A DNA stretch of 55,389 nt from Halocafeteria seosinensis (lineage: Eukaryota): contig LVLI01000146.1 of assembly GCA_001687465.1 (NCBI GenBank), forward strand, positions 124,001 through 179,389. Reading direction: 5' to 3'. Shown here piece by piece: positions 9,997 through 55,389 of the stretch. Made by a program: the position numbers and the translations under genes. The notes under the pieces were generated by a model. It had not been told where the DNA came from. It did no database searches and worked only from the letters and a program-made list of their open reading frames with translations. Position 1 is the stretch's first letter; each line of letters opens with the position of its first letter.

Positions 9997-10088
9997 GGAT
10001 CATCAGTTAAGACGGTGAATAGAGACATACAAAGCAGCGCAACAATCCAAAAGCCTCTTGGAGTTAAATATCGTTTGTCCTCTTCGTA

Positions 10089-13000
10089 ATGAGCAAGCCG
10101 AATACGAATCCATTCACACAGCAGTCAGCGCCGCAGGCGCAGCCATCGTCTACAACCCAGAACACGGATACAGGAGCGCCGAGTAGCGTGAAAAGTCCCG
10201 GGAGGAATCCATTTGCTCAACAGCAGCAACAGCCTCCGGAAGACACAGATGCGGCAGGTGCTTTTCCATCATCCGCTGCTGCGATAGGTACCCCTAACAG
10301 TGCAATGGACAGCTCAAAAAAAGGAATGAACCCATTTGCGTCTCCTCCACAGCCACAAACGGGCGCAAATAGACCGCCACCAGAACCTGCGGGAGCTGGG
10401 ACGAGCCCTCACAGGGTATCTTGGCAGCAATCTCCCGTGACGGGCACCTCAAGTGAGGCAGTGCCGGTTGTAGGACACCAAGTCACTTCCTTCTCCAGTG
10501 GGACCGGAAGAGAGGGTGCAGCTGAAGAAGACATGAGTTACGAGCCACTCTCGCAGAACGCGGAGGCAACGGGAGGAACCAACAATGGCATTGGCGAGGA
10601 AACCCCAAGGGCAACGAACCCATTTGCAACCTCTGCGGTCAGTCCGCCACATCCTACGAAGGATACTACACAACCTCCAGGGTACATACAATGGAAGCAG
10701 CGACAACAACAAAGTGATGAGAGGGCACCGGAGCCTCTTCCCGCTAACGCTGTAGTCGGCTCTAGAGGAGTTGTCATGGAAGAGGAAAAGACCTACTACT
10801 TCAAGCCGAATGCAAAGCAAAATGAGGGGAATGTTGCTCAGATGCGATTTTGGAGGCCATCACTTGAGTCTCTCGCTTTTTCTAAGATTAGTGGGCCAGC
10901 TACGGTGACCACTAATCCGGCACTGTTTCAACACAACACGATGGAGAGAGTGGGTCTCGGAAGGGTATTGAGTTTGAACGGGAAGCCCAAGGAGGTATTT
11001 TTGAAACTGAGAGGTGCCCAGATTACCGCTACCGCCAATCACCGCGATCCAACACCGCTATTTCATATCCCCTTGAATCCCACAACTCGGGTTTTCGCCA
11101 GTACACGGAGGTTTGGTAGCCCCCCTACCAATGACATTATAAGTGCACTTTATCGAGCGCTACCAAGAACTGCAGTGTCTTGGGAAGAGGACGGATCGGG
11201 CCACTTTTTTGAGCCAATCCAACGCCCTCCCAGCGGAAGTAAGTTACCATTGGTCCTGGAACTATGGACCGATAATCCCATTTCAGGCCGGAATAATCCC
11301 AGGAGCAAGACGAAACTAATGGCATTTCTGCAATTCTCCGGGATTCTTCAGTACTTTCAATGGGCAGATGCGATTGACAATGTTATTCATATTCTCAGAG
11401 GGAACTTCTCGCTACCTATGGCTCCAGCAGCTCCACCCCTGACGCGGGTGCTGCCAACTGTGTACGATACTCGTAGTATAAGGGCGTCATTGTACAGAAC
11501 CGGGAGGATATACTTGACCCAACTAGAAGATTCGCAGGCTGGCGTTCCACTGACATCTCGCATGTCGTTGACGAGCAACTCTGCCACTATAGTCTGGAAT
11601 CATCCCTCACCTGAGAGGAGTGCAGAGCGCATCACTGAGTTCATAATGCAGGTTTTCTTGGAAGATAAGCTGTTTAAGACGTTACGAATGCCCTTCTTCC
11701 AGATGCAGTCCGTAACTTCATCTGATCTCCATGAAATGCCCACTGAATCTGGCTGCATATGTCTGGATTACGCGACGGATACGGTAGCACGCTTTGCCGA
11801 GCAATCGACTGGTGGTGTCCATCGATGTCAACCTGCGGATCAACATGCACCTTTGTCACATTTACTCTGCGCCAATGTGCATGGTCTCGAATCAAACTCG
11901 ATCTACAACTTTCGAATTCTATCTGTTAATCGATTTGGCTACAGTTCTAATGGCTTGGGCTCATCTCCCCTGGCATGTTGTAGAACGATGAAACCCATTT
12001 CCTCCGTAACTTGTACAGCAGAAAATGTGATATCCCATTCCTCGGCTTTTGTCTTACGATGGACCGTGGAGACGGAGAGTGAAGAGGCTAATATTGATTA
12101 CATTGGTGGTAACGATCTTACGTCTCAGGAGAAGGAGCTATATAGTCCCTTTACCCGGCTTTTGCACAGTATTGGTGATAAATCCACTCCTCCTGATGGC
12201 TTCACCGTGGAGGTAACCCTCGCGGACTCTGAGCAGTTGGCAGAATGGATCGAGTCAGATTCGTTACCGCTTCTGGACTGGAAGCGTTTCATACATATTC
12301 CCATAGGCGTTGCTTGCCGGACAAAGGCTTGTTTGGACTCATACGGGCCTTGTGATAACTTTGTAATGCAACACGAGGAATTTCGAGAACTCAACAGCTT
12401 AGTCCGTGGGATGCGTGCATCCACCGACCAAAATGAGATGGGAGAAACAGATCACAGTGTGAGTTTTGGCGGGCTTGTAGATGGACTAGCGCCGGCGTCA
12501 CCGTATGTGGTTAGGCTATGTACCCATTCACAAGGCAATTTTTCCCCTTTTAGCGAAGAGTTCGGTCCATTTTGGACTCTAGGACCACCATCGAAGCCAC
12601 CTCCCGTCGTTACAGAGGTAAAAGAGGAGGTTTCAGCTTCTAGTGTAAGCGTCGAAGTTCACCCACCAGAGTTAGGGGAACTGGATGCGCCTCTCGAAGG
12701 GATGGAGATATATCTTGTTCAAGCTAATTCTGCGCGAGAGATTCGCAAGATAATGACGTCCGAAAATTGTACCGAGATGTTCGATCGGGTTATAAAGCAG
12801 CGGTTTGAGGATATTTTTGGCTCTGAGAGTGCAGAAACTGTCAATGTTGGGAGACTTCAGGTACACCCCAACATCAGAAATAGTTTTGCAGTAAAATTCA
12901 TTGGGCTAGCTTCGGATTCGCCATACTATGTAGTGAGCCGGGCATTCAACGCTGTAGCTATTGGTCCGTTTACGCGGCATCCCACTCAAGTTCATACCCT

Positions 13001-16000
13001 TGGTCCTCCCACGGTAAGTAAATCGAAGAAGTATATAGTCGCATCTATTCTTAAATTATCCGGTTTTGTTTTTCTTACCAGGTTCCTCCTGAACCTCCAT
13101 TTCCCGCCAGAGATCTTTCCGGCTACTCTGAAATACCATACGCAACGTCCTTCTGGAAAGACTGCGAAAGCTTTGGTAATGCTGTTCCTCAGGATGGTTT
13201 TGACTTCGTTTTGAACACTGCGGGACAACATTTTTCCAAGGGAGTGGGGATAGACTGTGTATGGATTGATTGGAAAGAGGCGGAGCATGGAAACCACGAT
13301 GCCCCTATTGGTGGGTATGAAGTCGGATGGCTTCACGTGACGAATGACAGTACTCTACCTGATGATGCAAGCGGTTGTCAAACTGTCACTTGTACCGGTG
13401 GTTCAAAAGAGACTCGTATGTGTGTTCAGGGTATCAAACCAGCGTCCAAGGTTTCGTTTTGCGTACGCGCATGGAACGAAGTAGGGTTTGGTCCGTATAG
13501 CGACTTCTCGGAACCTGTGCAGCTGTTGCTGCCCCCGAAAATTGTACCCTCCTTACCAGTTTTTTGCGAAAAACGAGCTGCTGAGGCGAGCGACCTTATT
13601 GCTGGGTTTCAAGCTCTTTCTACCCTTGCTCAAGACAAGCTATTGGATGTGGTCTCGATCTTCGACACCTCTAGACTGGAGTTGTACAATGGCACAGGAT
13701 CGCATTCCCTGAAGCTTGTCGCGGACATTGCTTCTTGGGAGAAGGCTGGTGTCGATGAAGCACCATATGAAGCCGTGGCAATAGAGTATGGGGGTGGCAC
13801 GGAAGTTACTGACACGGAGGCTGCTGACGCCGACGCTCTGCAGGGAAGACTCTTCATTTCGCTTGAGTCTTTGCTTTATACTGATGGTGAAGTTAGTATA
13901 ACGCAACTAGACCCTGGAGCAGCTTACGTTTTCTCTCAGCGATATTTCAGTGGAGCTGGTGTTGGCGAACGCAGTAGCTTTACATCTAAAATTCGAACTC
14001 TTGGAGCACCTGAGACCTTTTGTCCAAGTCCGGCTCCAGTAAAGGCTTCAGGAACCGCAATAGATGTGTGTATAGCTTCAGCGAATGATTCCCGTTTTCT
14101 TAGGTGCGGATCAGCGGATGCCCCTTATGAGGGGTTTGAGATCGAATATGAAGGGACTCCCCTCGACGATAGTGATGGGTCCTCCACCCCAGACAGAATT
14201 CATACTGGTTCTTGTAGCCTCTGGCTATCCTCTGTTTCTGTAGTAAATTCTATCGAAGAGATGGACGGGACGAAGTCGCTGTCTTCCACTGAGCACAATA
14301 GCGTGTGCGGCTTCTTGGTTGACGGAAGTCTGTATATTAGAATTCCTGGCTTACGCTCCCTTTATCGATATACTTCCCGGATTCGTCTATTTAATAATTT
14401 CGGAAACTCCACATGGAGCGGCTGGTCGGAGCGGAATCGCCTTTCTACTACGCTAGGTCCTCCTCGAAACCCGCCATCGGGCATTAAAGTGGAAGGCATC
14501 ACTCTAACCCAAGATGCCAGCATTAGTGTAGTGCCAGCAGAATTTGCGTTTGTTACTCTATACCCTCCAGTCTTAGGTGAATTTGAGGGGGCCATCGAGG
14601 GTGTTGCAATACGCCTCGTGGAAGTATCAACGAATAGTGGGGAGAATCTGAGTGAGTCGCTCAGCGGTTCCATCCCCGGAGAAGGCAGAAGCGAGAACGA
14701 AATCATGGAGCTGATCAGGGCTGTAGAAAGTGACCAAGCTAATAGAATAAGGAGCCTAAAGATCCCTCTATCGCGAGTGAGGGTGCTAGAGTCCGGTGCA
14801 TATCAGGTCACGGTGCCAGATTTGGAACCGGGCTCTTGGTATTTTGTTCAGGCTTCTGCGTCAAACAAACTGGGCAACTCGCCGTTGAGTGCGTTAGAAC
14901 CGGGAAGTTTATTCTTTGCAAGAGGCGTGCCTGTCAGCGTACATCTACCACCAGTTCTGTGTGAACGGAGTGCCAGAAGTTTAGTCATAGAGCACGGCAA
15001 AAGTGATCAACAAGATATAGTGGATGTTGTAAGAGAGTATCTCCAAAATTGCGATGGCACGCAGAAGACGGAATTACTCAATAGTGGTTGTCCAACACAT
15101 GCAGTCTTTGATTGCTTTCGAAAGAGCTCTAAACGAGCTGTCATATGCTCGGAGGAAGCGGAATTGGCAGTTCCTGGAGATGAGCTAGTGGACGGCATAG
15201 GTAAAGTGCTCAAAGACGCGGCTCCTGAAACTGAGCCGGCATATTTGCCCTTTGTGGCGACCGCAGTAGCTCGGTTATTCTGCTATGCGAAGGTCCGAGT
15301 TCGAAATTTAATACCAGGAAATACCTATATAGTTGAGCAGCGATTTCAGAATGATACAGGCTCTAGCCTATCAAGCGCAGAATCGCTGGAGGCAACAACT
15401 GTTGCAGAACCCCTGGGCCCTCCTGAGACGGAGGACCTGGTCACTGAGGTAGAATCTAGTGAAGGCGTATACATGGCAGAAACTGTTGAATCGTTGGATG
15501 AGCCGGATGAACAGTTTTTGCTCCCACCAGAGCCCAGCTTCAATATGGAAGCTGATACCAGTAGTGTGGAACACGTTGGCTTATACCACTCCATAAATTT
15601 GAGTAACGTCGTAAAGTATCAAGATAGGTGCGTAGTCTCTGTCAGAATAGGTCTAGTTTCGGAAGCTGTGGAGAATGAGGAAGATGAGGAAGATGAAGAA
15701 GATGGTGGCGATGAGGCCAACGTATCATGGTTTATCACATGGCTGCTAGGCATGCAATACTATATTGATGCCAACTCTCCCGCCGCCCAACTTTCTCTCC
15801 CTTTTCAAGACATTCTAGAGGCCATACCTGTGCGATCTCAGATCGATGAGTTCCGGCAACTGGTTAATGACCCGGCAAACTCCAGATGGATGAACGAAAA
15901 CAGCGAGGTGTCTGGCTTTAGTCGGATGGACTTGAGGTTCCTAATCTCACTGTCGGTTGCAACGGATGCTTCGTCTTCTCAATGGAGCTATGATTTTGAT

Positions 16001-17521
16001 CTTGCTCATCCGGAAAATGACCTTCGATCGGCGAATTTTGTGCTAACTCTATTGCCCTCAGATATCCCGGAAGGTGTAGGATCTACTGGTGATGATAGCG
16101 GAACCGAGGACATGGAACCGATACCGGGGGGTGCATCCACCTCGGCAGCTATCAGTTCTCAAAGTGATACGAACGATGCAACTGAATTGCATGCAACAAA
16201 TGCCGGCGTAGGAGCTCAGCAGCAGTCGACAGAACACACAACAGAAACGGGGTATGAGTCTTCGGCGGCTACTGAGAAATACGCTAATGCAGGAGGGCAA
16301 CACTCGCTAGATGCTGAGAATACTGCTGAGAAGGTGCACCATGTTGAAAATTCTGGCACAGCTACTACGCATGAACGTTGCGATTCGCCCGGAAATACTG
16401 GAGATGGAACGAGTGAGCGTCCTCCACAAAGACCTTTCCAAACCACATCTAGACCGACATTTGCTGGTGAAGAAAATGCAAACGCTGATGAACGAGATCG
16501 TGTAGTGGAGGGTTCGGCACAAGCAGAGAAGCCTTGTTTCCAAAGGGCCAGTGAAGTAGGGTACGCTTCTACTGGTGGCACCCAGTCAATTGAACAGGAG
16601 GTAGCTGCTACTGTTGCCCCCAGCAGTGAGAGTACCAATGTTGCACAGAACATGTCGGAGCGGGATGCTGCGCTCAATTTCTCGAATTCAGTTGTACTGG
16701 GCTCGCAACAAGCTGAACAAACATGCAACACCAAGACACCAGGGGAGGGGGAAATTTTGAACAAGTCCCATTATGGTGGTAAATCTGTGGTCACAAGGAA
16801 TCGTGATGGCTTCCTAACAAGTAGAGAACCACCAGAAGCGCCAACAGGAGTCTCTGGAGATGGAGTTAAACAGCCTGAACGGTCTGTTGTTGCATCCGAC
16901 GACCAGGACTTAATACGAGAGCCTCAGACGACTGGGAATAAAGAAGCGGGGGTGTACATGAAGGAGGATTCGAGTATTTCCGTCGGGCAAGCTGAGACAC
17001 TCTCAGCACGACTTGTTGAGACGTCTGCCGCCTACGGAGCCGGAGAAACCAATCCACCAACTTCTGAAACTACTGCAGCTACTCAAACCGCTGGGAAAGT
17101 AATAACAGTGGAAGGTTCCCCAGTCCATTATGCTCAGCATACTAATGGCGACAAGATTGATGGGATTGGGCACGTGGAGGAAAGCTCTCCGGATGCGAGT
17201 GTTGAGCACGAAAAGCAAGAGCGAATGATAAAACAGCATTTGAAAGAAAAGGAATTGGCGATGTTTCAGTGCCCTCATTGTCACTCGCATGTGGCTTCAG
17301 GAATGGGTTTTTGCAACTATTGTGGGTTACTTATTCCTTTCGGTTATGACGGAAATTCGGGCGATCCTCTTTATATGGTATCCCAAATATCCTCCAACGA
17401 CACGCGATTGAAGACTTGCTCTGTTTGCAGTGGTTCTTTGGCTGGCCATGAGCGTGTTCCTCGTTTTTGTATCCACTGTGGGGAGGAGCATCTTACAGGA
17501 CTTAGTCAAGGCGCAGAATGA
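10089..17521 (+). CDS. Giant (~2454 aa) protein: NPF-rich N-terminus, possible PH-like region, multiple divergent fibronectin type III domains, low-complexity region, C-terminal double zinc ribbon; single intron 13014-13081
   Basis: The 68-bp GTAAGT..CAG intron joins the two long ORFs in frame. FN3 signatures: GLESNSIYNFRILSVNRFG, GLASDSPYYVVSRAFNAVAIG, GIKPASKVSFCVRAWNEVGFGPYS, DLEPGSWYFVQASASNKLG. C-terminus: CPHC..CNYC and CSVC..CIHC. Confidence 0.8.
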
Positions 17522-36190: not shown

Positions 36191-36254
36191 AATCCAACCG
36201 TGTGCACACACACACAAATGTGACAGATAGCCCACCGGCCGGGGAATCCAACCG
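36191..36254 (-). mobile_element. 44-bp insertion (36201-36244) flanked by the 10-bp direct repeat AATCCAACCG; (TG)n-tailed on the minus strand
   Basis: Direct repeats at 36191-36200 and 36245-36254. The insert shares 32/33 bp with 49126-49158 in inverted orientation. Confidence 0.7.
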
Positions 36255-48243: not shown

Positions 48244-48782
48244 TATAGACAGATAGAGCCGGTGTTACGCGCGCCTCTTCACCAGGCTTTTGCGAACCAC
48301 TCGCGGTAACTACCGCACATGACACATGTAGTAACAGCAGCACAGATATGAATGCTCCTACAACCAAGAATAACTTGACGAGAATCAAAACAAAACTACA
48401 CAGGTACCCCTCATAACGATGCTGATCAGTGACAGCACCCGGGAGCGTGAGGTCCGCCCGTGTGGCCGACGACTCGGCGACGAGTCGGCGGCGACTCACA
48501 GAAAACAGAGCACAAAGTAGCCTACTCCCCATCCCCAGCGACCTCGCGCATTTGCAACCCTTCTTCATCGTTTCAAAACACGTGTTCACCGTCTTTCGGG
48601 TAAATGTGAAAATACCTGGTAACTCTGGTACATACGTGCCTCTTCTACCAGATGCTCTAGCATATCAGCTTATATCTGTAGGCAATGTTGGGAGGCCTTT
48701 CTCCAAATGCATTTTCACCGAGACGGTGTTTGCAGACAAAATCAGGTTGCATGGAGTCCATCTCAGAAGCTCAGATATTGCA

Positions 48783-49060
48783 TCAATCGATTCTCTTTCG
48801 GCAGTTTACATGCAAGATTCCATTTTCGTGTTGACCTTTTAGATAGGAAAAATTTTCTGAAATGTTGAACCCCGCAACCGAAATTCCCGAAATGTGGATT
48901 TGCCGTTGAAAAGTTCCAGAAATAGTGATTTTCACACGATAATCTTTTCTCCGAGAACGAGCGGATTTAATTCCACAAATACATGTATGGATTTTGCCCT
49001 GGTCCCAAAGGAATTGCGTACTGCCAGGTGTGGACTTCCAGAAGTAAACTAAAAATACGG
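48783..49060 (-). pseudogene. Possible HSP20/alpha-crystallin-like fragment
   Basis: SGTFQRQIHI...LKGQHENGILHVNCRK resembles the small-HSP C-terminal consensus (G.F.R...L...A...NGVL.I...K); no clean start found. Confidence 0.35.
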
Positions 49061-49116: not shown

Positions 49117-49168
49117 TATAGTAGGCGGTGGGCTATCTGTCACATATGTGTGTGTGTGTATAGTAGGC
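49117..49168 (+). mobile_element. 32-bp (TG)n-tailed insertion (49127-49158) flanked by the 10-bp direct repeat TATAGTAGGC
   Basis: Direct repeats at 49117-49126 and 49159-49168; near-identical to the 36205-36237 sequence. Confidence 0.7.
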
Positions 49169-49219: not shown

Positions 49220-51669
49220 TCAGAATATGTTATATCCAGTTTCTCCGTAATTCCTGCAGATGATTGTACCTTTCGTTTTTCTCTTTCCCCAAGGCCCAAG
49301 GTGTCTATCTCCTGCAAATGGACGCCCTCTACTGGCAGGAGCCGATACCGGCAGTCGAAGGTTGGCACAACAATTCCACTCCCTTGAGCAACGCTGAGCC
49401 ATCATACAACTGCTTCACCTCAGCCAAACTTATTTCGTCGAGAGATTTATTCTCGGTGAACTGCGATTGCCATTTGTCAACGTGTTATAAGTCATGCTTG
49501 AACAGCTTGTATCTGGGGATTCGTTCATGGTTAGACATCACGAAGCCATGAATGCATGGACGCGAGCGTGTTAAAGGAACGCCACAATCACATGTCATCA
49601 ATTCTTTGTTCACAGTCCTCTTGGTATGCAAATCGTGGACGATCAATGTATTCTCGTTTGGGTCCGCTTCTATATCCAATTGCCGCGTCGCTTCGTTTGC
49701 CTGTTTACCCAGATCACGGGTGATTTTCCGGCTAGCCTCCGAGAGCTTGTACTCAGCCCTTTTGTGAGACGCGATCAAGTTTTGCTGCTTACGGTATTTT
49801 CTCGCTTCTCCGGCTATGGCTTTCTGAAGAGCGTGATAAAAGTGTGAACCTCGGCTGGGTTTGTTGGCCCTATTCATACTCTCCACTAATTGCGAAGCAA
49901 AACGGCCAAACAGATGCACAGGAGTATTAGCACTGGTGTATCTAGTCACTAGTCACAGCAGCATACAAACATTGCTCTGTGTACGGAACTTTGTCGAGGT
50001 GTTCTTTCTGTGTGGGACTGAGTCACTCAAGTAATGCATCCGACAAGGTTGAGTAGCTGTGAGAATTCTTCGCGAAGACCGTCGACGCCCACTTGTCCTT
50101 CTTTCTTTTCTTTAGCTTGCGCAGGATGTGCACCGCCCGATGCGAAACACAATTGAAAAATCCCAGACTCGTGAATCTTTCACGATGCGCTTTGCGAGCG
50201 CCCTTATCTCCATCCATGAAGACAGTGTTCTCCTTCGTGTCCATACCAGGGTGATGCTTCCGCGTAAACTCGAAAAACCTGTCCCATGTTGCTGCGCTTT
50301 CATTGTCAATCGAAAACATTAGGGCTACTAGCACTGCCTGGTCATTCGATGAATATCCGTAACACGAAAACATCGTTCCAGGTTTCCCTGAGGATTAGCA
50401 TGCCATGAAGTCGGTCATAAAGGCTGAATGAAATCATAAGCTACTCCTACTTACCACGCGTCATATGAGCGGCGTCAGCACTATAAATCGGTAGCAGGGC
50501 CTCCACATTTGTAGTTCCCGGAGCCCACATTACGGATTCTACGAATTTGTCATCCTCTGTCATGGGAGGTATTCGGTCTAGAATCTTCTGCCGGCGCTCT
50601 TCCCATGTGTCTAAGTTTTCCTTCTCCTCTGCAGTTGCGTTTTTATTCTCCCGTTTCCACGCCGCTCTCTCGTTCTTGATAATAATGGCTTCCATTTTTG
50701 TTTTCCACAGAACGAGATATCAGATCCGTGTCCTATATCTTTCAGAGCTTTCACCAATGCCGGAAGCATACGTATAGTTCGCTCTTCACTTCCACAAACC
50801 ATACGGAAAGCCTCCGTTCTGACGCGATTCAATTTAGAAGGGCCTACCTTCTGACCTTTGTGGAGATAGAGAGCTAAGTGCTGCTGAAAGACCTTTCCTT
50901 TTGGTAATGCCGCCGCGGGGTCAACCAGGGCGGTGCAGGCATGGGCCAATTGCTTGTACGTGTAGTTTATGGTCTTCATTCCTTTTCTCTTTCTCGAAGC
51001 TGCTTCGGTTGTACATTCCTCTTCTGTTGCATCGGCTGTGTCGTGAAGAAGACTCTCGTGAACCTTTACATTGCTTACACGCCATGGTCTGCTCGTTCCG
51101 TCCATCCTATACGTAGCTCCAAGAAAGAGTTTTGGATCTTCCGTATTTTCCTCGTTCTTTAACTTAATTGCGATCGCACTGGGTCCACTGTCAGTCGCCA
51201 CAGTTTATAATTGCAGCACGTGAGCGAGCTTGGTGAAGCGGAGAAGTACATCAGCCTTTCGCTGAAAACGATCACCGCGTTTGACGATGCCGTCAGTTCC
51301 CTGGTCCATCAGCAGCTGCAGTTCGGCTAAAGTCCTCAGTCGGACCGTTGGGATATCATTGCCCTCAATTCTTTCCTGTCCCATCGCATCTCGAGCGGCG
51401 GTTCTCATCAACTCCCCTTTGGACCCCGTAGTATCTGTGGTTGTAGCCTGCCCCGGGCCGTCTTCTTCACTTTCTGTGCCAGGCTCGTCGCTTTCAAAAT
51501 CACTGAGACCACTTTCGGATGTGGTAGAGCTTTCGCTATCATCCGGCGAAGTACGAATTCCTCTCCCGTGCTCACATCCAATTGCAGTACCCTGTGTCTG
51601 CTCCTCCGGCGTCGTACCATCACATGCATGTGCCTGTGATGTAGACCAGAAATGCCGCGGCTGAAACAA
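49220..51669 (-). mobile_element. Decayed Mutator-like (MULE) transposase pseudogene; element ends not found
   Basis: DDE-type motifs SADAAH, FMDGDKG, CVSH and VESMN; SWIM finger CDCGVPLTRSRPCIH; degenerate knuckle CRNYGETGYN. In-frame TAA at 51205-51207 and 49485-49487, frameshifts near 50700 and 49350. Confidence 0.85.
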
Positions 51670-52174
51670 CCCTTTGTGGTCACATTATGATTGTCGCACA
51701 TACCGTTGGTTCCTAAGGTTGCACTGTACCAGCGCGCGTAGTTGCGGGCCTACCGCGTTCCATTCTCGTCGTTGTGGTACAGCCAGATGTCATGTTCATG
51801 TGTGTACTGTCCTTAGGAGCATGGTTTGTCGTTTTGGTGTTCTCTGATGTGCGTTTTGGTGTCTTCGTCGTCTGCGAAAGCTTGGTGGTCTGTGAAAGCG
51901 CTACACGCTTGTTTCCACTGCTACAACTATGATTAGCCTTCCTTTTGTGAAAACTCGTCCGGCCATCTTGGCCAGAAAGTCTGGTACTTCCTCTCATGGT
52001 TGTCTGCACACTGAGGATATACAAAACACCCTAATAAAGACAGTCTAGAGTACGACGCCTTTGGCCCCGAATTTGAATGTACTGAGTAGTAGAATAATTG
52101 TTTGTGCGATAAAATCCATATTTCTGGAATTAAATTGAGTACATTGTGAAATCACTATATGTGAACTTTATATT

Positions 52175-54388
52175 TCAAAAATCAACATTTCTGGAATAAA
52201 GAGTTATATCTTTGGTTGTTTCATCTTTTAATTCATCATCCATATCTGCGTTGTAAAAATAATTACCATAACCATTTTCATTTAAAAACTCTTCTATTCT
52301 TTTTAATTCTGTTTTACTTGTAGAATGCACTAATATATTTCTCCCGTTTTGTAAATCTTCTACTAGTTTTTTCATTATTTTATTTCTTGATAGAAAAAGT
52401 GTTGCATTTCTTTCTTTCGGTTTTATTATATTTTCTGTTATTTTAATTTTCATTGTTGCTCTTCTTTTCTTCTCTTTAATGTCTTCATCATCATCTACAT
52501 TTTTCCTTATTCTTTCTCTCTCTTTCTTAATATCTAATAACAAATCTTTTGTTCTATTACTTAAGAAGGCATCATTTCCTACTATTTTATTTGAGTTTTT
52601 CATTATCTTCATAAAATTGTTTTTTATATCGCGCTTAAAATTTCTTATTGTTTCACTTGAAAATGTATTTTCAATGGTCTCTGCTTCATCTATCACTACT
52701 AAATCAAATTTCCTATAATTTTGTATCTTATATAAGCTTTCTAGTGATATTATTAGTCTATTTACCTTATTAAAATCTTCTACATCTTGATAACTTACGA
52801 ATTTTTCTCCTGTAATTTTATTATTTATTTCTTCTAATTTATTATTACAATAAATTATTCTTGGTGAAAACCATATAATGCGTTTATAATTCTTTTCTTT
52901 TATTAGATTTGTTAATACTGTTGTTTTTCCTGTTCCCATTGGGGATTTTATTATATGTATATCGTGATTTTTGATATCATACTCTTTTACATATTGCTCA
53001 TTATATGTTTCATAATCTATGTAGTGTTTCTCATCTTCTTCCACTTTAATATCAAAACTATTATTTATTACTTCATTTTTATTTACTCTTAATTCTAATC
53101 CTAAAATGTTTTCTGTTTTATCCTGTATATTCTCCACTATCCCATTATATATTTCTTCATTTGCCGTATGTATTCTTTCTATTACATAGTTTAATGTTAA
53201 TATCCTCTTTTTTGTTATCTTCTCATTGAATTTGTTTATTATTTCTTCCTCGTTTTCTTCATTCTTTATTTCTTCTTTTAATTCTTTAACCTCCTTTATC
53301 GCATTTTCTATTGTTTGGTTTTGTTTTCTAAAATTATTTTCTACAAAATAATAGCCATTATTTTTGTATTTATTACATCTTCTCATTATCTTATGGGTTA
53401 TATCCTTTATTTTTTCATCTCCTAATGTTCCTAAACTAAATATCGTCTTTATTGCTTTTGTAAAATCACATATTTCATTTTGTTTTTTATCTTTATCTTT
53501 ACATCTTGTTTTACATTCTAGTTGGTTATTATTACAATGGGGTAGTATATCTAATAACTTTTGGAAGTAGTTTAACTCCTTTTCTTGTATGTTTTTTATG
53601 TTTTTCCTTATTTTGTCTATCTCCTCTATTTTTTTTATAAAGCTATTTACTTTCTCTATATTATCCTCATTTACTACTTCAACATCATTGTTATATTCTC
53701 CTTCATTCGTTATTTTTTCTACGTTTTCTCTTTCCTTAAATCCTTGTATTATATAATCTACTATTTCATCGCTTATTTCTATTGGTTCTGTTCTATTTAT
53801 AATTTTGTATTTATTGTATCTAAACTCTTTTTTTTCTCCATTAATATAATCCTTAACTCTGTAATTACTACATCCTGGACCTACTAAATAGGTTTCTTTT
53901 CCTTCTTCTGTTCCTTGTTTTATATCTAAAAATCCTCCATATAATTTATTTGTTTCGGCTGTTTTTCTTCCTATTTTTTCTAATTCTTCTTCTAAATATT
54001 CGCTTACTTTAAAATAATAGTGATATCCATTACTAGCTGTTTTTACTTTTAACGTGTTAATATCATCTTTAAAATTTTCATTAAAGTTATTAAACTGCTT
54101 TTCATTATCTTCCTCATATAACTTATCAAAATCTAAAACTACGTATTTATCCCTTCTTACTGCTACCCCGTAGTTATAATTTCCTTTCTTTAATATTTCT
54201 AATGTTTTTTCTGTTAATTGTTCTTTCTCTTCTTTTGTTACTGTTAAACCATTCCATCCTGCCATATTTTTATATGGTGTTAATTGTTCTTCAGTTAATG
54301 GTATTTTTTGTCCTTCATTCAATGGTAGTAAATTAAAAAACTTACTCATAAATTTTGCTTCTTCGTATTTTCTATTTTGTTCAGACAT
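52175..54388 (-). CDS. Bifunctional primase-polymerase (Prim-Pol) fused to an SF2 helicase of the origin-binding-protein (UL9-like) type; probably C-terminally truncated
   Basis: N-terminus NYGVAVRRDKYVVLDFD...VKTASNGYHYYF...LDIK...YLVGPG. C-terminus IIKSPMGTGKT (Walker A), WFSPRII, LIISLESLYKI, LVVIDEAE (Walker B), GNDAFL. Confidence 0.8.
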   Translation of the reverse strand: MSEQNRKYEEAKFMSKFFNLLPLNEGQKIPLTEEQLTPYKNMAGWNGLTVTKEEKEQLTEKTLEILKKGNYNYGVAVRRDKYVVLDFDKLYEEDNEKQFNNFNENFKDDINTLKVKTASNGYHYYFKVSEYLEEELEKIGRKTAETNKLYGGFLDIKQGTEEGKETYLVGPGCSNYRVKDYINGEKKEFRYNKYKIINRTEPIEISDEIVDYIIQGFKERENVEKITNEGEYNNDVEVVNEDNIEKVNSFIKKIEEIDKIRKNIKNIQEKELNYFQKLLDILPHCNNNQLECKTRCKDKDKKQNEICDFTKAIKTIFSLGTLGDEKIKDITHKIMRRCNKYKNNGYYFVENNFRKQNQTIENAIKEVKELKEEIKNEENEEEIINKFNEKITKKRILTLNYVIERIHTANEEIYNGIVENIQDKTENILGLELRVNKNEVINNSFDIKVEEDEKHYIDYETYNEQYVKEYDIKNHDIHIIKSPMGTGKTTVLTNLIKEKNYKRIIWFSPRIIYCNNKLEEINNKITGEKFVSYQDVEDFNKVNRLIISLESLYKIQNYRKFDLVVIDEAETIENTFSSETIRNFKRDIKNNFMKIMKNSNKIVGNDAFLSNRTKDLLLDIKKERERIRKNVDDDEDIKEKKRRATMKIKITENIIKPKERNATLFLSRNKIMKKLVEDLQNGRNILVHSTSKTELKRIEEFLNENGYGNYFYNADMDDELKDETTKDITLYSRNVDF

Positions 54389-54395
54389 CTTAATT

Positions 54396-54482
54396 CTATA
54401 CTATATATTTCTATAATATTTTTATTTCTTTAAACCCATTACAATAATTCTATATAATTTTTAGGGGTCCAAATTTCACATT
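54396..54482 (-). promoter_or_regulatory. 87-bp upstream cassette, copy 1 (7 bp before the Prim-Pol/helicase ATG)
   Basis: Ungapped match to 55303-55389; first 69 bp differ at 2 positions plus one N. Confidence 0.7.
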
Positions 54483-54531
54483 ATCCCCTAAAATATGTTG
54501 AAACTGGTTCCTTTCCATAAAACTATATTTA

Positions 54532-54563
54532 TTAATTATTAATTAATGAAAATTAATAATTAA
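54532..54563 (-). terminator. Perfect 13-bp AT-only hairpin with 6-nt loop directly after the stop codon of ORF 54564-55298
   Basis: TTAATTATTAATT-AATGAA-AATTAATAATTAA. Confidence 0.55.
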
Positions 54564-55298
54564 CTACTTCTTTATTTTATTTTGTAGTGTTTTACCTACG
54601 TTATAGAATGTTTTTATCTTTATGTTTCTCATATCTCCATAACGATAACTAAATGTTGTTTCATCTTGTTTATCTAGATATTTTGATAAAGTATTATATA
54701 TCATTTTATAATTTTTTTTATGAATTTCTTGTAATGCTTCTANAAATTGTTCNTTTATGTCTTTATTTTTTCCTTTTAACTCTACAAAGGCTTCATTAAA
54801 TCTTTCTTTTGATTTTTGCATTATGTGCTTAATTTCATAACCATTGTTTGTTATATCCTCATTTGTCTCTTCTATATCTGTTCTACTATACTTTTTCTTC
54901 CTTAACTCTTTATCCATATTTTTTATTTTCTCATTTATATCATCAATTTTTTTTCTATCTTGTGTGTCTAGTTTGTATCTTAATATATATCTTTTAGGGT
55001 TATTGTTTGTTTCTATGTTTTTCAGTTTGTTATATAATTTATTAACGTTTTTATAACATTCTAAATGTCGTGTTTCGCATTTAATGCCCTTCTTTTTTAG
55101 TGCTTCATTATATATTTTTTGTTTTTGTTTTTCCTTTCTTATTCTAAATTTCTTTTCTTTTCTTTCATATTTTTCGTATTTTGCTTTTTGTTTTACCAAT
55201 TTTAATATAGTTTTGTTTGTTTCTTCAAAGAATTTTTCAATATTATCTATTTCCATTTTTAATATTTCTATTTGTTCTGTTTCTGTTAAATTTCCCAT
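54564..55298 (-). CDS. 244-aa Lys/Glu-rich, coiled-coil-like ORF of the AT-rich element, unknown function
   Basis: Intact ORF in very AT-rich DNA, preceded by the conserved cassette and followed by a hairpin. Confidence 0.7.
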   Translation of the reverse strand: MGNLTETEQIEILKMEIDNIEKFFEETNKTILKLVKQKAKYEKYERKEKKFRIRKEKQKQKIYNEALKKKGIKCETRHLECYKNVNKLYNKLKNIETNNNPKRYILRYKLDTQDRKKIDDINEKIKNMDKELRKKKYSRTDIEETNEDITNNGYEIKHIMQKSKERFNEAFVELKGKNKDIXEQFXEALQEIHKKNYKMIYNTLSKYLDKQDETTFSYRYGDMRNIKIKTFYNVGKTLQNKIKK

Positions 55299-55302
55299 TT
55301 TC

Positions 55303-55389
55303 CTATACTATATATTTCTATATTATTTTTATTTCTTTAAACCCATTANAATATTTCTATATAATTTTTAGAGACTTGAATTTCACATT
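55303..55389 (-). promoter_or_regulatory. 87-bp upstream cassette, copy 2 (4 bp before the ATG at 55298; may extend past the window end)
   Basis: Ungapped match to 54396-54482. Confidence 0.7.

What the first reader, a model, noticed from the sequence alone, without database searches (positions are those of the whole stretch)
52100..55389. Endogenous AT-rich virus-like element with a Prim-Pol / origin-binding SF2 helicase fusion
Seen: composition switches sharply from intron-rich host DNA to very AT-rich intronless ORFs. The 737-aa ORF has Prim-Pol motifs (VVLDFD, KTASNGYHYYF) followed by SF2 motifs (SPMGTGKT, ISLESLYKI, IDEAE, DAFL). Known: AT-rich integrated virophages and Polinton-like viruses occur in protist genomes and most often use SF3 or SF1 helicases, while UL9-like origin-binding SF2 helicases occur in herpesviruses and giant viruses. 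Inference: this is the edge of an integrated viral or selfish replicon with an unusual one-protein initiator/primase. Its class cannot be set because no capsid, ATPase or integrase gene lies in the window.
Basis: partly seen in the sequence, partly recalled or inferred. Interest (0 to 1): 0.85.

Follow-up and report, generated by a model that had tools for sequence, protein, structure and literature searches.

The report
Transposon-broken virophage-type replicase gene
This is a 3.2-kb, very AT-rich piece of what is likely a virophage or Polinton-like virus in a protist genome, whose primase-helicase gene is cut off at the end of a host DNA transposon; both the gene type and such transposon hits are already described.

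Summary
The AT-rich DNA and the Prim-Pol plus UL9-like SF2 helicase ORF are real, but 52.1 kb is not the edge of the element and the 737-aa protein is not whole. The junction is at 52203/52204, where the right end of a host Mutator-like (MULE) transposon cuts the gene at codon 728; its nearest relative is 1162 aa (55% identical), and helicase motifs V, VI and the C-terminal domain are missing. DNA contigs of the same organism hold several uninterrupted variants of the viral gene and other flanks of the MULE end, but none bridges this junction, so the link to this host locus may be an assembly jump between MULE copies. Shared 87-bp upstream blocks and a 13-bp hairpin right after the second ORF's stop point to a virophage-type element; no capsid gene is in view. 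The fusion is known from virophages, PLVs, mriyaviruses and giant viruses, and MULEs inside endogenous virophages/PLVs are published. What is new is only a divergent clade of this replicase. Ordinary; interest low.

The parts
52204..55389 (.). AT-rich viral fragment (23% GC); runs to the end of the window
   Evidence: all 3 N of the window lie here; short, variant contigs at depth about 30-100 against 111 for single-copy host DNA in run X1
52175..54388 (-). Truncated Prim-Pol / divergent PriCT-2-like linker / UL9-like SF2 helicase gene; codons 1-728 viral (52205-54388), last 9 codons and stop read from the MULE end
53864..54337 (-). Prim-Pol (AEP) domain, aa 18-175, motifs DxD, sxH and third acidic residue present
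   Evidence: Pfam PF09250 E 1e-8; alignment
52205..52960 (-). SF2 helicase core, motifs I to IVa; motifs V, VI and about 430 C-terminal residues absent
   Evidence: motif names from recalled SF2 nomenclature
54396..54482 (-). 87-bp upstream block 1 (promoter-like; TTTAAAGA core and TATAGTATA near the ATG)
   Evidence: 90% identical to block 2, E 1e-27; motif test
54532..54563 (-). Perfect 13-bp hairpin, 6-nt loop, starting at the first base after the stop of the 244-aa ORF; likely a giant-virus-type 3'-end signal
54564..55298 (-). 244-aa lysine-rich orphan ORF (2 ambiguous bases)
   Evidence: no relative found
55303..55389 (-). 87-bp upstream block 2; the window ends in it
52094..52203 (.). 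Right end (imperfect TIR) of the host MULE; its last base abuts the viral gene
   Evidence: inverted match to 48883-48988, score 78 against null maxima 51 and 55; other copies leave into different flanks at 52202, 52203, 52205
49485..51204 (-). Broken or intron-split MULE transposase region
   Evidence: PF10551 MULE E 8e-6 at 50023-50373, just under cut-off; multi-copy depth
48883..48988 (.). Left imperfect TIR region of the MULE; exact left end not fixed (about 48.79-48.88 kb); flanked by host DNA, no target-site duplication found

Best explanation
The AT-rich DNA is likely a fragment of a multi-copy endogenous polisuvirus, more likely a virophage than a Polinton-like virus, whose replicase gene is cut at codon 728 by the end of a host MULE transposon. 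Shown: the domains, the truncation, the transposon end at 52203, and uninterrupted variants of the gene in the same organism's DNA. Inferred: a MULE jumped into one viral copy in the nucleus; the rest of that copy is absent here either because the assembly crossed between two MULE copies or because recombination or adjacent deletion removed it. Inferred mechanism of intact copies: one protein of about 1160 aa would unwind the viral DNA (SF2 helicase) and prime or extend it (Prim-Pol) in place of a pPolB; the shared upstream blocks and the post-stop hairpin would let a co-infecting giant virus transcribe the genes. This copy lacks helicase motifs V and VI and is predicted to be dead as a helicase.
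For: Full-length relative P0001 1162 aa, 55% identical over aa 1-728, alignment ends at the junction. In DNA run X1, three contigs carry the MULE end into other flanks at 52202, 52203 and 52205, and two carry the viral side on past 52204 into other letters, which by my hand reading keep the frame open and fit the relatives' residues; those letters share no overlap with the MULE end, so a break exactly at the transposon terminus is best read as a transposition product. X1 matches 2944 bases of unique host DNA without a difference, so virus variants and host come from one culture. Of the best 80 IMG/VR loci of the helicase, 10 carry a virophage capsid marker, 15 any virophage marker and 19 an A32 ATPase or presumed PLV capsid; L021 is a 22-kb record rated 100% complete with Sputnik-type major and minor capsid and the same Prim-Pol + PriCT-2 + UL9-like protein. 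Hairpin: only stem of 10 bp or more in the viral 3.2 kb, none of 11 or more in 52 kb of host, 1 of 1000 and 0 of 60 shuffles; such stems occur in 16 of 22 virophage-marker loci against 9 of 36 PLV-like loci; hairpins as polyadenylation signals of Mimivirus and Sputnik (PMC6277510). The same MULE-in-virus pattern, including a disrupted virophage replication gene, is reported for a 47%-GC bicosoecid (10.64898/2026.07.28.741278).
Against: No capsid, ATPase, protease, integrase or viral TIR in the window. No X1 contig is seen to bridge the junction: 8 of 16 contigs were listed, and depth accounting leaves 0 for a bridging one; contigs drop rare variants, and no raw or long reads were available. 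No target-site duplication and no viral DNA left of the MULE. The window's clade (window, P0001, P0003; SH-aLRT 99, quick tree) has no member with known neighbours and no firm sister group, and these replicases move between virus groups, so the gene cannot set the class. The hairpin's folding z-score over 81 nt is only -1.8 (13 of 200 shuffles), the hairpin comparison is post hoc and counts some loci twice, and giant-virus-like loci have such hairpins too (2 of 3).
Confidence: 0.7

Rival explanations
1. The fragment comes from a giant virus (Nucleocytoviricota), integrated or co-cultured, carrying an R8/F1055L-like primase-helicase.
For: Such fusions are in mimiviruses, ASFV, mriyaviruses and SmDNAV; a named mimivirus protein is among the hits (P0007, 28%). 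The 21-nt core of the upstream block occurs exactly before a KilA-N gene in 3 near-identical giant-virus-like contigs, one independent case. Hairpins fit Mimiviridae as well.
Against: Most of the best-scoring viral contigs are 13-30 kb; several haplotypes at host-like depth and a MULE hit suit a multi-copy nuclear family of small viruses; no NCLDV core gene in view.
Confidence: 0.12
2. The virus is extrachromosomal in the culture and the whole junction is an assembly or library chimera.
For: No bridging contig in X1; window ends in a repeat; all 3 N lie in the viral part.
Against: The break falls within a base of the transposon terminus defined by other copies, with no shared sequence for an assembler to cross; a random chimera would rarely land there.
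Confidence: 0.1
3. It is a capsid-less, transpoviron-like replicon built from repeated promoter blocks, replicated by this one protein.
For: No structural gene seen; the two closest relatives lie on 4.8- and 2.5-kb contigs; the 87-bp blocks are far longer than a promoter motif and could serve as origins.
Against: Only 3.2 kb is visible and short metagenomic contigs are usually fragments; complete relatives with this architecture have capsids.
Confidence: 0.08

Closest known systems
Endogenous virophages and PLVs of Halocafeteria seosinensis invaded by MULEs (bioRxiv 10.64898/2026.07.28.741278; parts 1-3 of 5 of the text and passages read)
   Same: Low-GC virus DNA in a 47%-GC protist genome; 16 MULE insertions in the viruses, one disrupting a virophage replication gene; fragments; shared primase-polymerase genes; most such elements sit on short contigs in short-read assemblies.
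   Different: The text read names pPolB, D5 primase-helicase, PolA-S3H and primase-polymerases but no UL9/SF2 fusion (0 hits for UL9, origin binding, S2H); its figures and supplements, which list five replication proteins, were not seen. Average element GC there is 34-35% against 23% here. Whether this window's host is that species was not tested.
Prim-S2H replicase (Prim-Pol, PriCT_2, ResIII) of 20 endogenous Rhodomonas lacustris PLVs (PMC12220804, passages)
   Same: Same domain order in host-integrated PLVs.
   Different: Cryptophyte host; no sequence comparison made; PriCT_2 is not detected by Pfam here.
AEP-SF2 replicases of polisuviruses (bioRxiv 10.64898/2026.10.13.758929, passages) and IMG/VR virophages L021/L022
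   Same: AEP or Prim-Pol fused to an SF2 helicase, called a sizable minority; L021 has Prim-Pol, PriCT-2 and Herpes_ori_bp beside virophage capsids.
   Different: About 30% identity in the helicase; separate clade in the tree; the N-terminal halves do not find each other by phmmer.
UL9-like primase-helicases of mriyaviruses, mimivirus R8, ASFV pF1055L, OsHV-1 and SmDNAV (PMC11253617 and 10.64898/2026.08.29.747986, passages)
   Same: Intact AEP motifs fused to a UL9-related SF2 helicase.
   Different: Larger viruses with NCLDV core genes; here the AEP is of the Prim-Pol (PF09250) type.
EMALEs with Ngaro insertions in Cafeteria burkhardae (PMC8547959, passages)
   Same: AT-rich endogenous virophages hit by host transposons, once in a primase/helicase gene; type-specific promoter motifs.
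   Different: Ngaro retrotransposons instead of a MULE; the TCTA late promoter is not the motif seen here.

Membership tests
Virophage (Virophaviricetes) | Virophage-type major and minor capsid, FtsK-HerA ATPase, cysteine protease | not testable with these tools
   Only 3.2 kb and two ORFs are in the window; no genome is held; no close relative with neighbours found
Virophage (Virophaviricetes) | Giant-virus-type expression signals (shared promoter motif, 3' hairpin) | tested here: inconclusive
   87-bp shared blocks and a 13-bp post-stop hairpin present; hairpins in 16 of 22 virophage-marker against 9 of 36 PLV-like loci, but weak folding z-score; the TTAAAG..TA[GT]TATA spacing occurs in both groups (1 of 139 and 5 of 185 upstream regions, 0 of 166 phage-like)
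Polinton-like virus | PLV capsid, A32-like ATPase, integrase or recombinase, TIRs with TSD | not testable with these tools
   None in the window; the left junction is a MULE end, not a viral TIR
UL9-like primase-helicase family | SF2 helicase core related to UL9 (PF02399) | tested here: met
   P0001 PF02399 E 1.4e-21; family profile against UL9 aa 87-413 E 2.5e-40; window alone E 0.009
UL9-like primase-helicase family | N-terminal AEP with intact catalytic motifs | tested here: met
   PF09250 E 1e-8; DxD, sxH and acidic motif aligned with L021 and P0012
UL9-like primase-helicase family | Complete helicase (motifs V, VI) in this copy | tested here: not met
   ORF ends before them
Herpesvirus origin-binding protein (function) | C-terminal sequence-specific DNA-binding domain homologous to that of UL9 | tested here: inconclusive
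   The profile match stops at UL9 aa 413; the model of P0001 was unusable (pLDDT 38); this copy lacks the region
MULE transposon | MULE transposase domain and long imperfect TIRs, multi-copy | tested here: met
   PF10551 E 8e-6, 26.6 bits against cut-off 27.6; TIR score 78 against null max 51 of 400 and 55 of 200; several flanks
MULE transposon | 8-11 bp target-site duplication on both sides | tested here: not met
   Only an 8-mer at 48670, about 200 bp outside the left TIR and judged chance; flanks are host on the left and virus on the right
Bacterial plasmid or phage replicon | Relatives in plasmid or phage records | tested here: not met
   No tblastn match at E 1e-5 in plasmids or phages; a distant phage clade exists (phrog_4913)

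The most novel reading that the evidence does not exclude
A new lineage of small, possibly capsid-less nuclear replicons or virophages, kept as several variants in one protist, that replicate with a single Prim-Pol/UL9-like protein carrying a cysteine-rich, possibly metal-binding insert in place of an ordinary PriCT-2, and use the 87-bp blocks both as giant-virus-driven promoters and as origins or gene-swapping cassettes.
Probability: 0.1. Interest if true: 0.6.

Novelty: new member of a known kind. Interest (0 to 1): 0.25.

Why it matters
It adds a divergent clade of polisuvirus-type AEP-SF2 replicases (one relative at 55%, one at 35%, the rest at about 25-33%) and one more case of a host DNA transposon breaking a resident virus, which is indirect evidence of a nuclear stage. 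It is also a caution for scans: a GC step beside a truncated viral ORF can be a transposon end, not a provirus boundary. No AEP-UL9 fusion of a small virus was described as biochemically tested in the passages read (no dedicated search made), so an intact relative such as P0001 would be a fair assay target.

Tried and rejected
No whole genome held. Prokaryote genome scan could not run, so that collection is untested. Profile search of 1.84 billion proteins never ran. Orphan ORF: no credible Pfam, PHROG, Atlas, IMG/VR or locus match. AlphaFold of P0001 on 3 sequences: pLDDT 38, no fold search made; no deeper model was obtained, so the C-terminal domain's fold is open. Expression: no listed holder is on record as RNA; runs X2-X4 behave as RNA (introns skipped) and give no cover from 52402 on, which is not used as evidence. 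TGA read-through at 52175 rejected: the letters after codon 728 are the MULE end shared with other copies. Virus inserted into the MULE rejected: it would leave a viral terminus, not a mid-gene break. Clusters c17/c19, counted as presumed PLV capsids, had no Pfam match, so the PLV-like count is soft; 48 of 74 helicase N-termini were scanned and 3 hit Prim-Pol. Host: named Rpn11 hits are mostly oomycetes and diatoms at 60-62%, with plants at 61-63%; three exon look-ups found nothing; host left as an unplaced, stramenopile-like protist. Literature search for the TTAAAGA motif gave one unrelated paper. Byrne 2009 is not held; its hairpin rule is cited through PMC6277510 only. Earlier findings of the scan: none returned.
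Full report
Observation. GC is 47% over 1-48800 and 23% over 52204-55389. The left part is a eukaryotic genome: contigs of runs X2-X4 skip seven GT..AG introns of 56-75 nt at 46.1-48.0 kb, while run X1 reads through them and matches 2944 bases of unique host DNA without a difference. The named relatives of a host Rpn11 fragment are mostly oomycetes and diatoms at 60-62%, with plants as close, so the host is only loosely a stramenopile-like protist. The AT-rich part has two intronless minus-strand ORFs of 737 and 244 aa. The first has Prim-Pol (E 1e-8, aa 18-175) and an SF2 helicase core; its only 4 PDB matches are herpesvirus origin-binding proteins.

The gene is broken. The best of 2 hits, P0001, is 1162 aa and 55% identical over aa 1-728; the alignment ends there. 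Against six relatives the window protein keeps the three AEP motifs and helicase motifs I to IVa but lacks V, VI and about 430 C-terminal residues (motif names recalled). The DNA left of codon 728 is the end of a MULE: a MULE transposase domain at 50023-50373 (E 8e-6, just under cut-off), imperfect inverted ends at 48883-48988 and 52094-52197 (score 78; null maxima 51 of 400 host and 55 of 200 viral segments), and depth above single copy. Its right end is itself 25% GC, which is why the composition step appears at about 52.1 kb.

The junction. In DNA run X1 three contigs carry the MULE end into other flanks at 52202, 52203 and 52205, and run X2 shows the first of these too; two contigs carry the viral side beyond 52204 into other letters. 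Read by hand, those eight letters keep the frame open and fit the residues of P0001 and P0003 at that place, so uninterrupted copies exist in this culture, as at least four variants (depths about 30, 14, 8.5 and 8). Against the window: of 16 contigs laid, 8 were listed, none bridging, and the residual depth is fully explained without a bridging contig (fitted depth 0). Contigs drop rare forms, so this is no proof of absence. The break lies at the transposon terminus and the intact letters share nothing with the MULE end, which favours a real insertion in a minority copy over a random chimera (inference). But the MULE's left flank is host DNA, with no target-site duplication and no viral remainder: the link of the virus to this particular host gene is probably an assembly jump between MULE copies or a later deletion. 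All 3 N of the window are in the viral part, as expected of collapsed copies.

What kind of virus. A scan of IMG/VR found 119 stretches with the helicase; the best 80 were kept. With profiles built from my own clusters, 15 of 80 carry a virophage marker (10 a capsid marker) and 19 an A32 ATPase or presumed PLV capsid; others are giant-virus-, herpesvirus- and phage-like. Pfam confirmed Sputnik-type capsids in L001, L002 and L021; L021 (22 kb, rated 100% complete) has Prim-Pol, PriCT-2 and Herpes_ori_bp in one protein. Three of 48 N-termini scanned (of 74) hit Prim-Pol. In a quick tree of 104 helicase cores the window, P0001 and P0003 form their own clade (99) without a firm sister. P0001 has no match in plasmid or phage records. 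Non-coding signals lean to a virophage: both ORFs share a 90% identical 87-bp upstream block, whose 21-nt core recurs before a gene in 3 near-identical giant-virus-like contigs, and a perfect 13-bp hairpin begins right after the second ORF's stop (1 of 1000 and 0 of 60 shuffles; none of 11 bp or more in the 52-kb host part). Such stems are in 16 of 22 virophage-marker loci and 9 of 36 PLV-like loci (14 of 19 and 7 of 26 below 31% GC), with some loci counted twice; the folding z-score is only -1.8. Hairpins at polyadenylation sites of Mimivirus and Sputnik are noted in PMC6277510 (passage). The class stays inferred: virophage about 0.45, PLV about 0.25.

Mechanism. Inferred from the family: an intact protein of about 1160 aa would couple unwinding to priming or synthesis and stand in for pPolB or an AEP-SF3 enzyme. 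Origin binding is not shown: a 47-sequence family profile matches UL9 only over aa 87-413 (E 2.5e-40), and the structure model was unusable. This copy is predicted to be inactive as a helicase.

Comparison. AEP fused to a UL9-like helicase is described in mriyaviruses, mimivirus R8, ASFV pF1055L, OsHV-1 and SmDNAV (passages of PMC11253617 and 10.64898/2026.08.29.747986); Prim-Pol/PriCT_2/ResIII in 20 endogenous Rhodomonas PLVs (passages of PMC12220804); AEP-SF2 as a sizable minority of polisuvirus replicases (passages of 10.64898/2026.10.13.758929); an SF2 helicase is listed among virophage genes in a review (passage of PMC10301787). Transposons inside endogenous virophages are described for Cafeteria (passages of PMC8547959) and, with 16 MULE insertions including a disrupted replication gene, for Halocafeteria (parts 1-3 of 5 and passages of 10.64898/2026.07.28.741278). 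Its figures and supplements were not seen and may already hold this gene; whether the host is the same species was not tested.

Verdict. A real but ordinary thing: a transposon-broken fragment of a likely endogenous virophage or PLV, with a divergent member of a known replicase family. Interest 0.25.

Noticed in passing
window 53375-53536 (-), aa 285-338 of the large ORF: Five cysteines (C285, C292, C296, C307, C338) are all kept in P0001; four sit in an insert within the region that aligns to PriCT-2 of other members. Possible metal site; two sequences only.
   Followed up: no
window 53050-53125: One X1 contig (depth 23) replaces 74 bases of the replicase linker with 17 other letters: another, probably broken, variant copy.
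   Followed up: no
window 49126-49158 and 36205-36237: A 33-bp repeat ending in a GT run lies inside the MULE and, inverted, elsewhere in the window; extremely high summed depth and many loose ends in all four runs; one X1 contig joins 49157 to 52175 with only 28 letters on the short side.
   Followed up: no
window 55303-55389: The window ends exactly in the second 87-bp block, which suggests that more copies of the block broke the assembly there.
   Followed up: partly
L081:10001-10021 (also L082, L083): Giant-virus-like contigs (PCNA, topoisomerase II with a Hint domain, KilA-N/T5orf172) carry the same 21-nt core just before an ATG.
   Followed up: partly
L048, L053, L057-L079 (part): A well-supported 20-row clade of UL9-like helicases lies in contigs with tailed-phage-like genes.
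   Followed up: no
window 10068-17518 (+): Very long host exons (1048 and 1488 codons) with fibronectin-like repeats by eye; not scanned.
   Followed up: no
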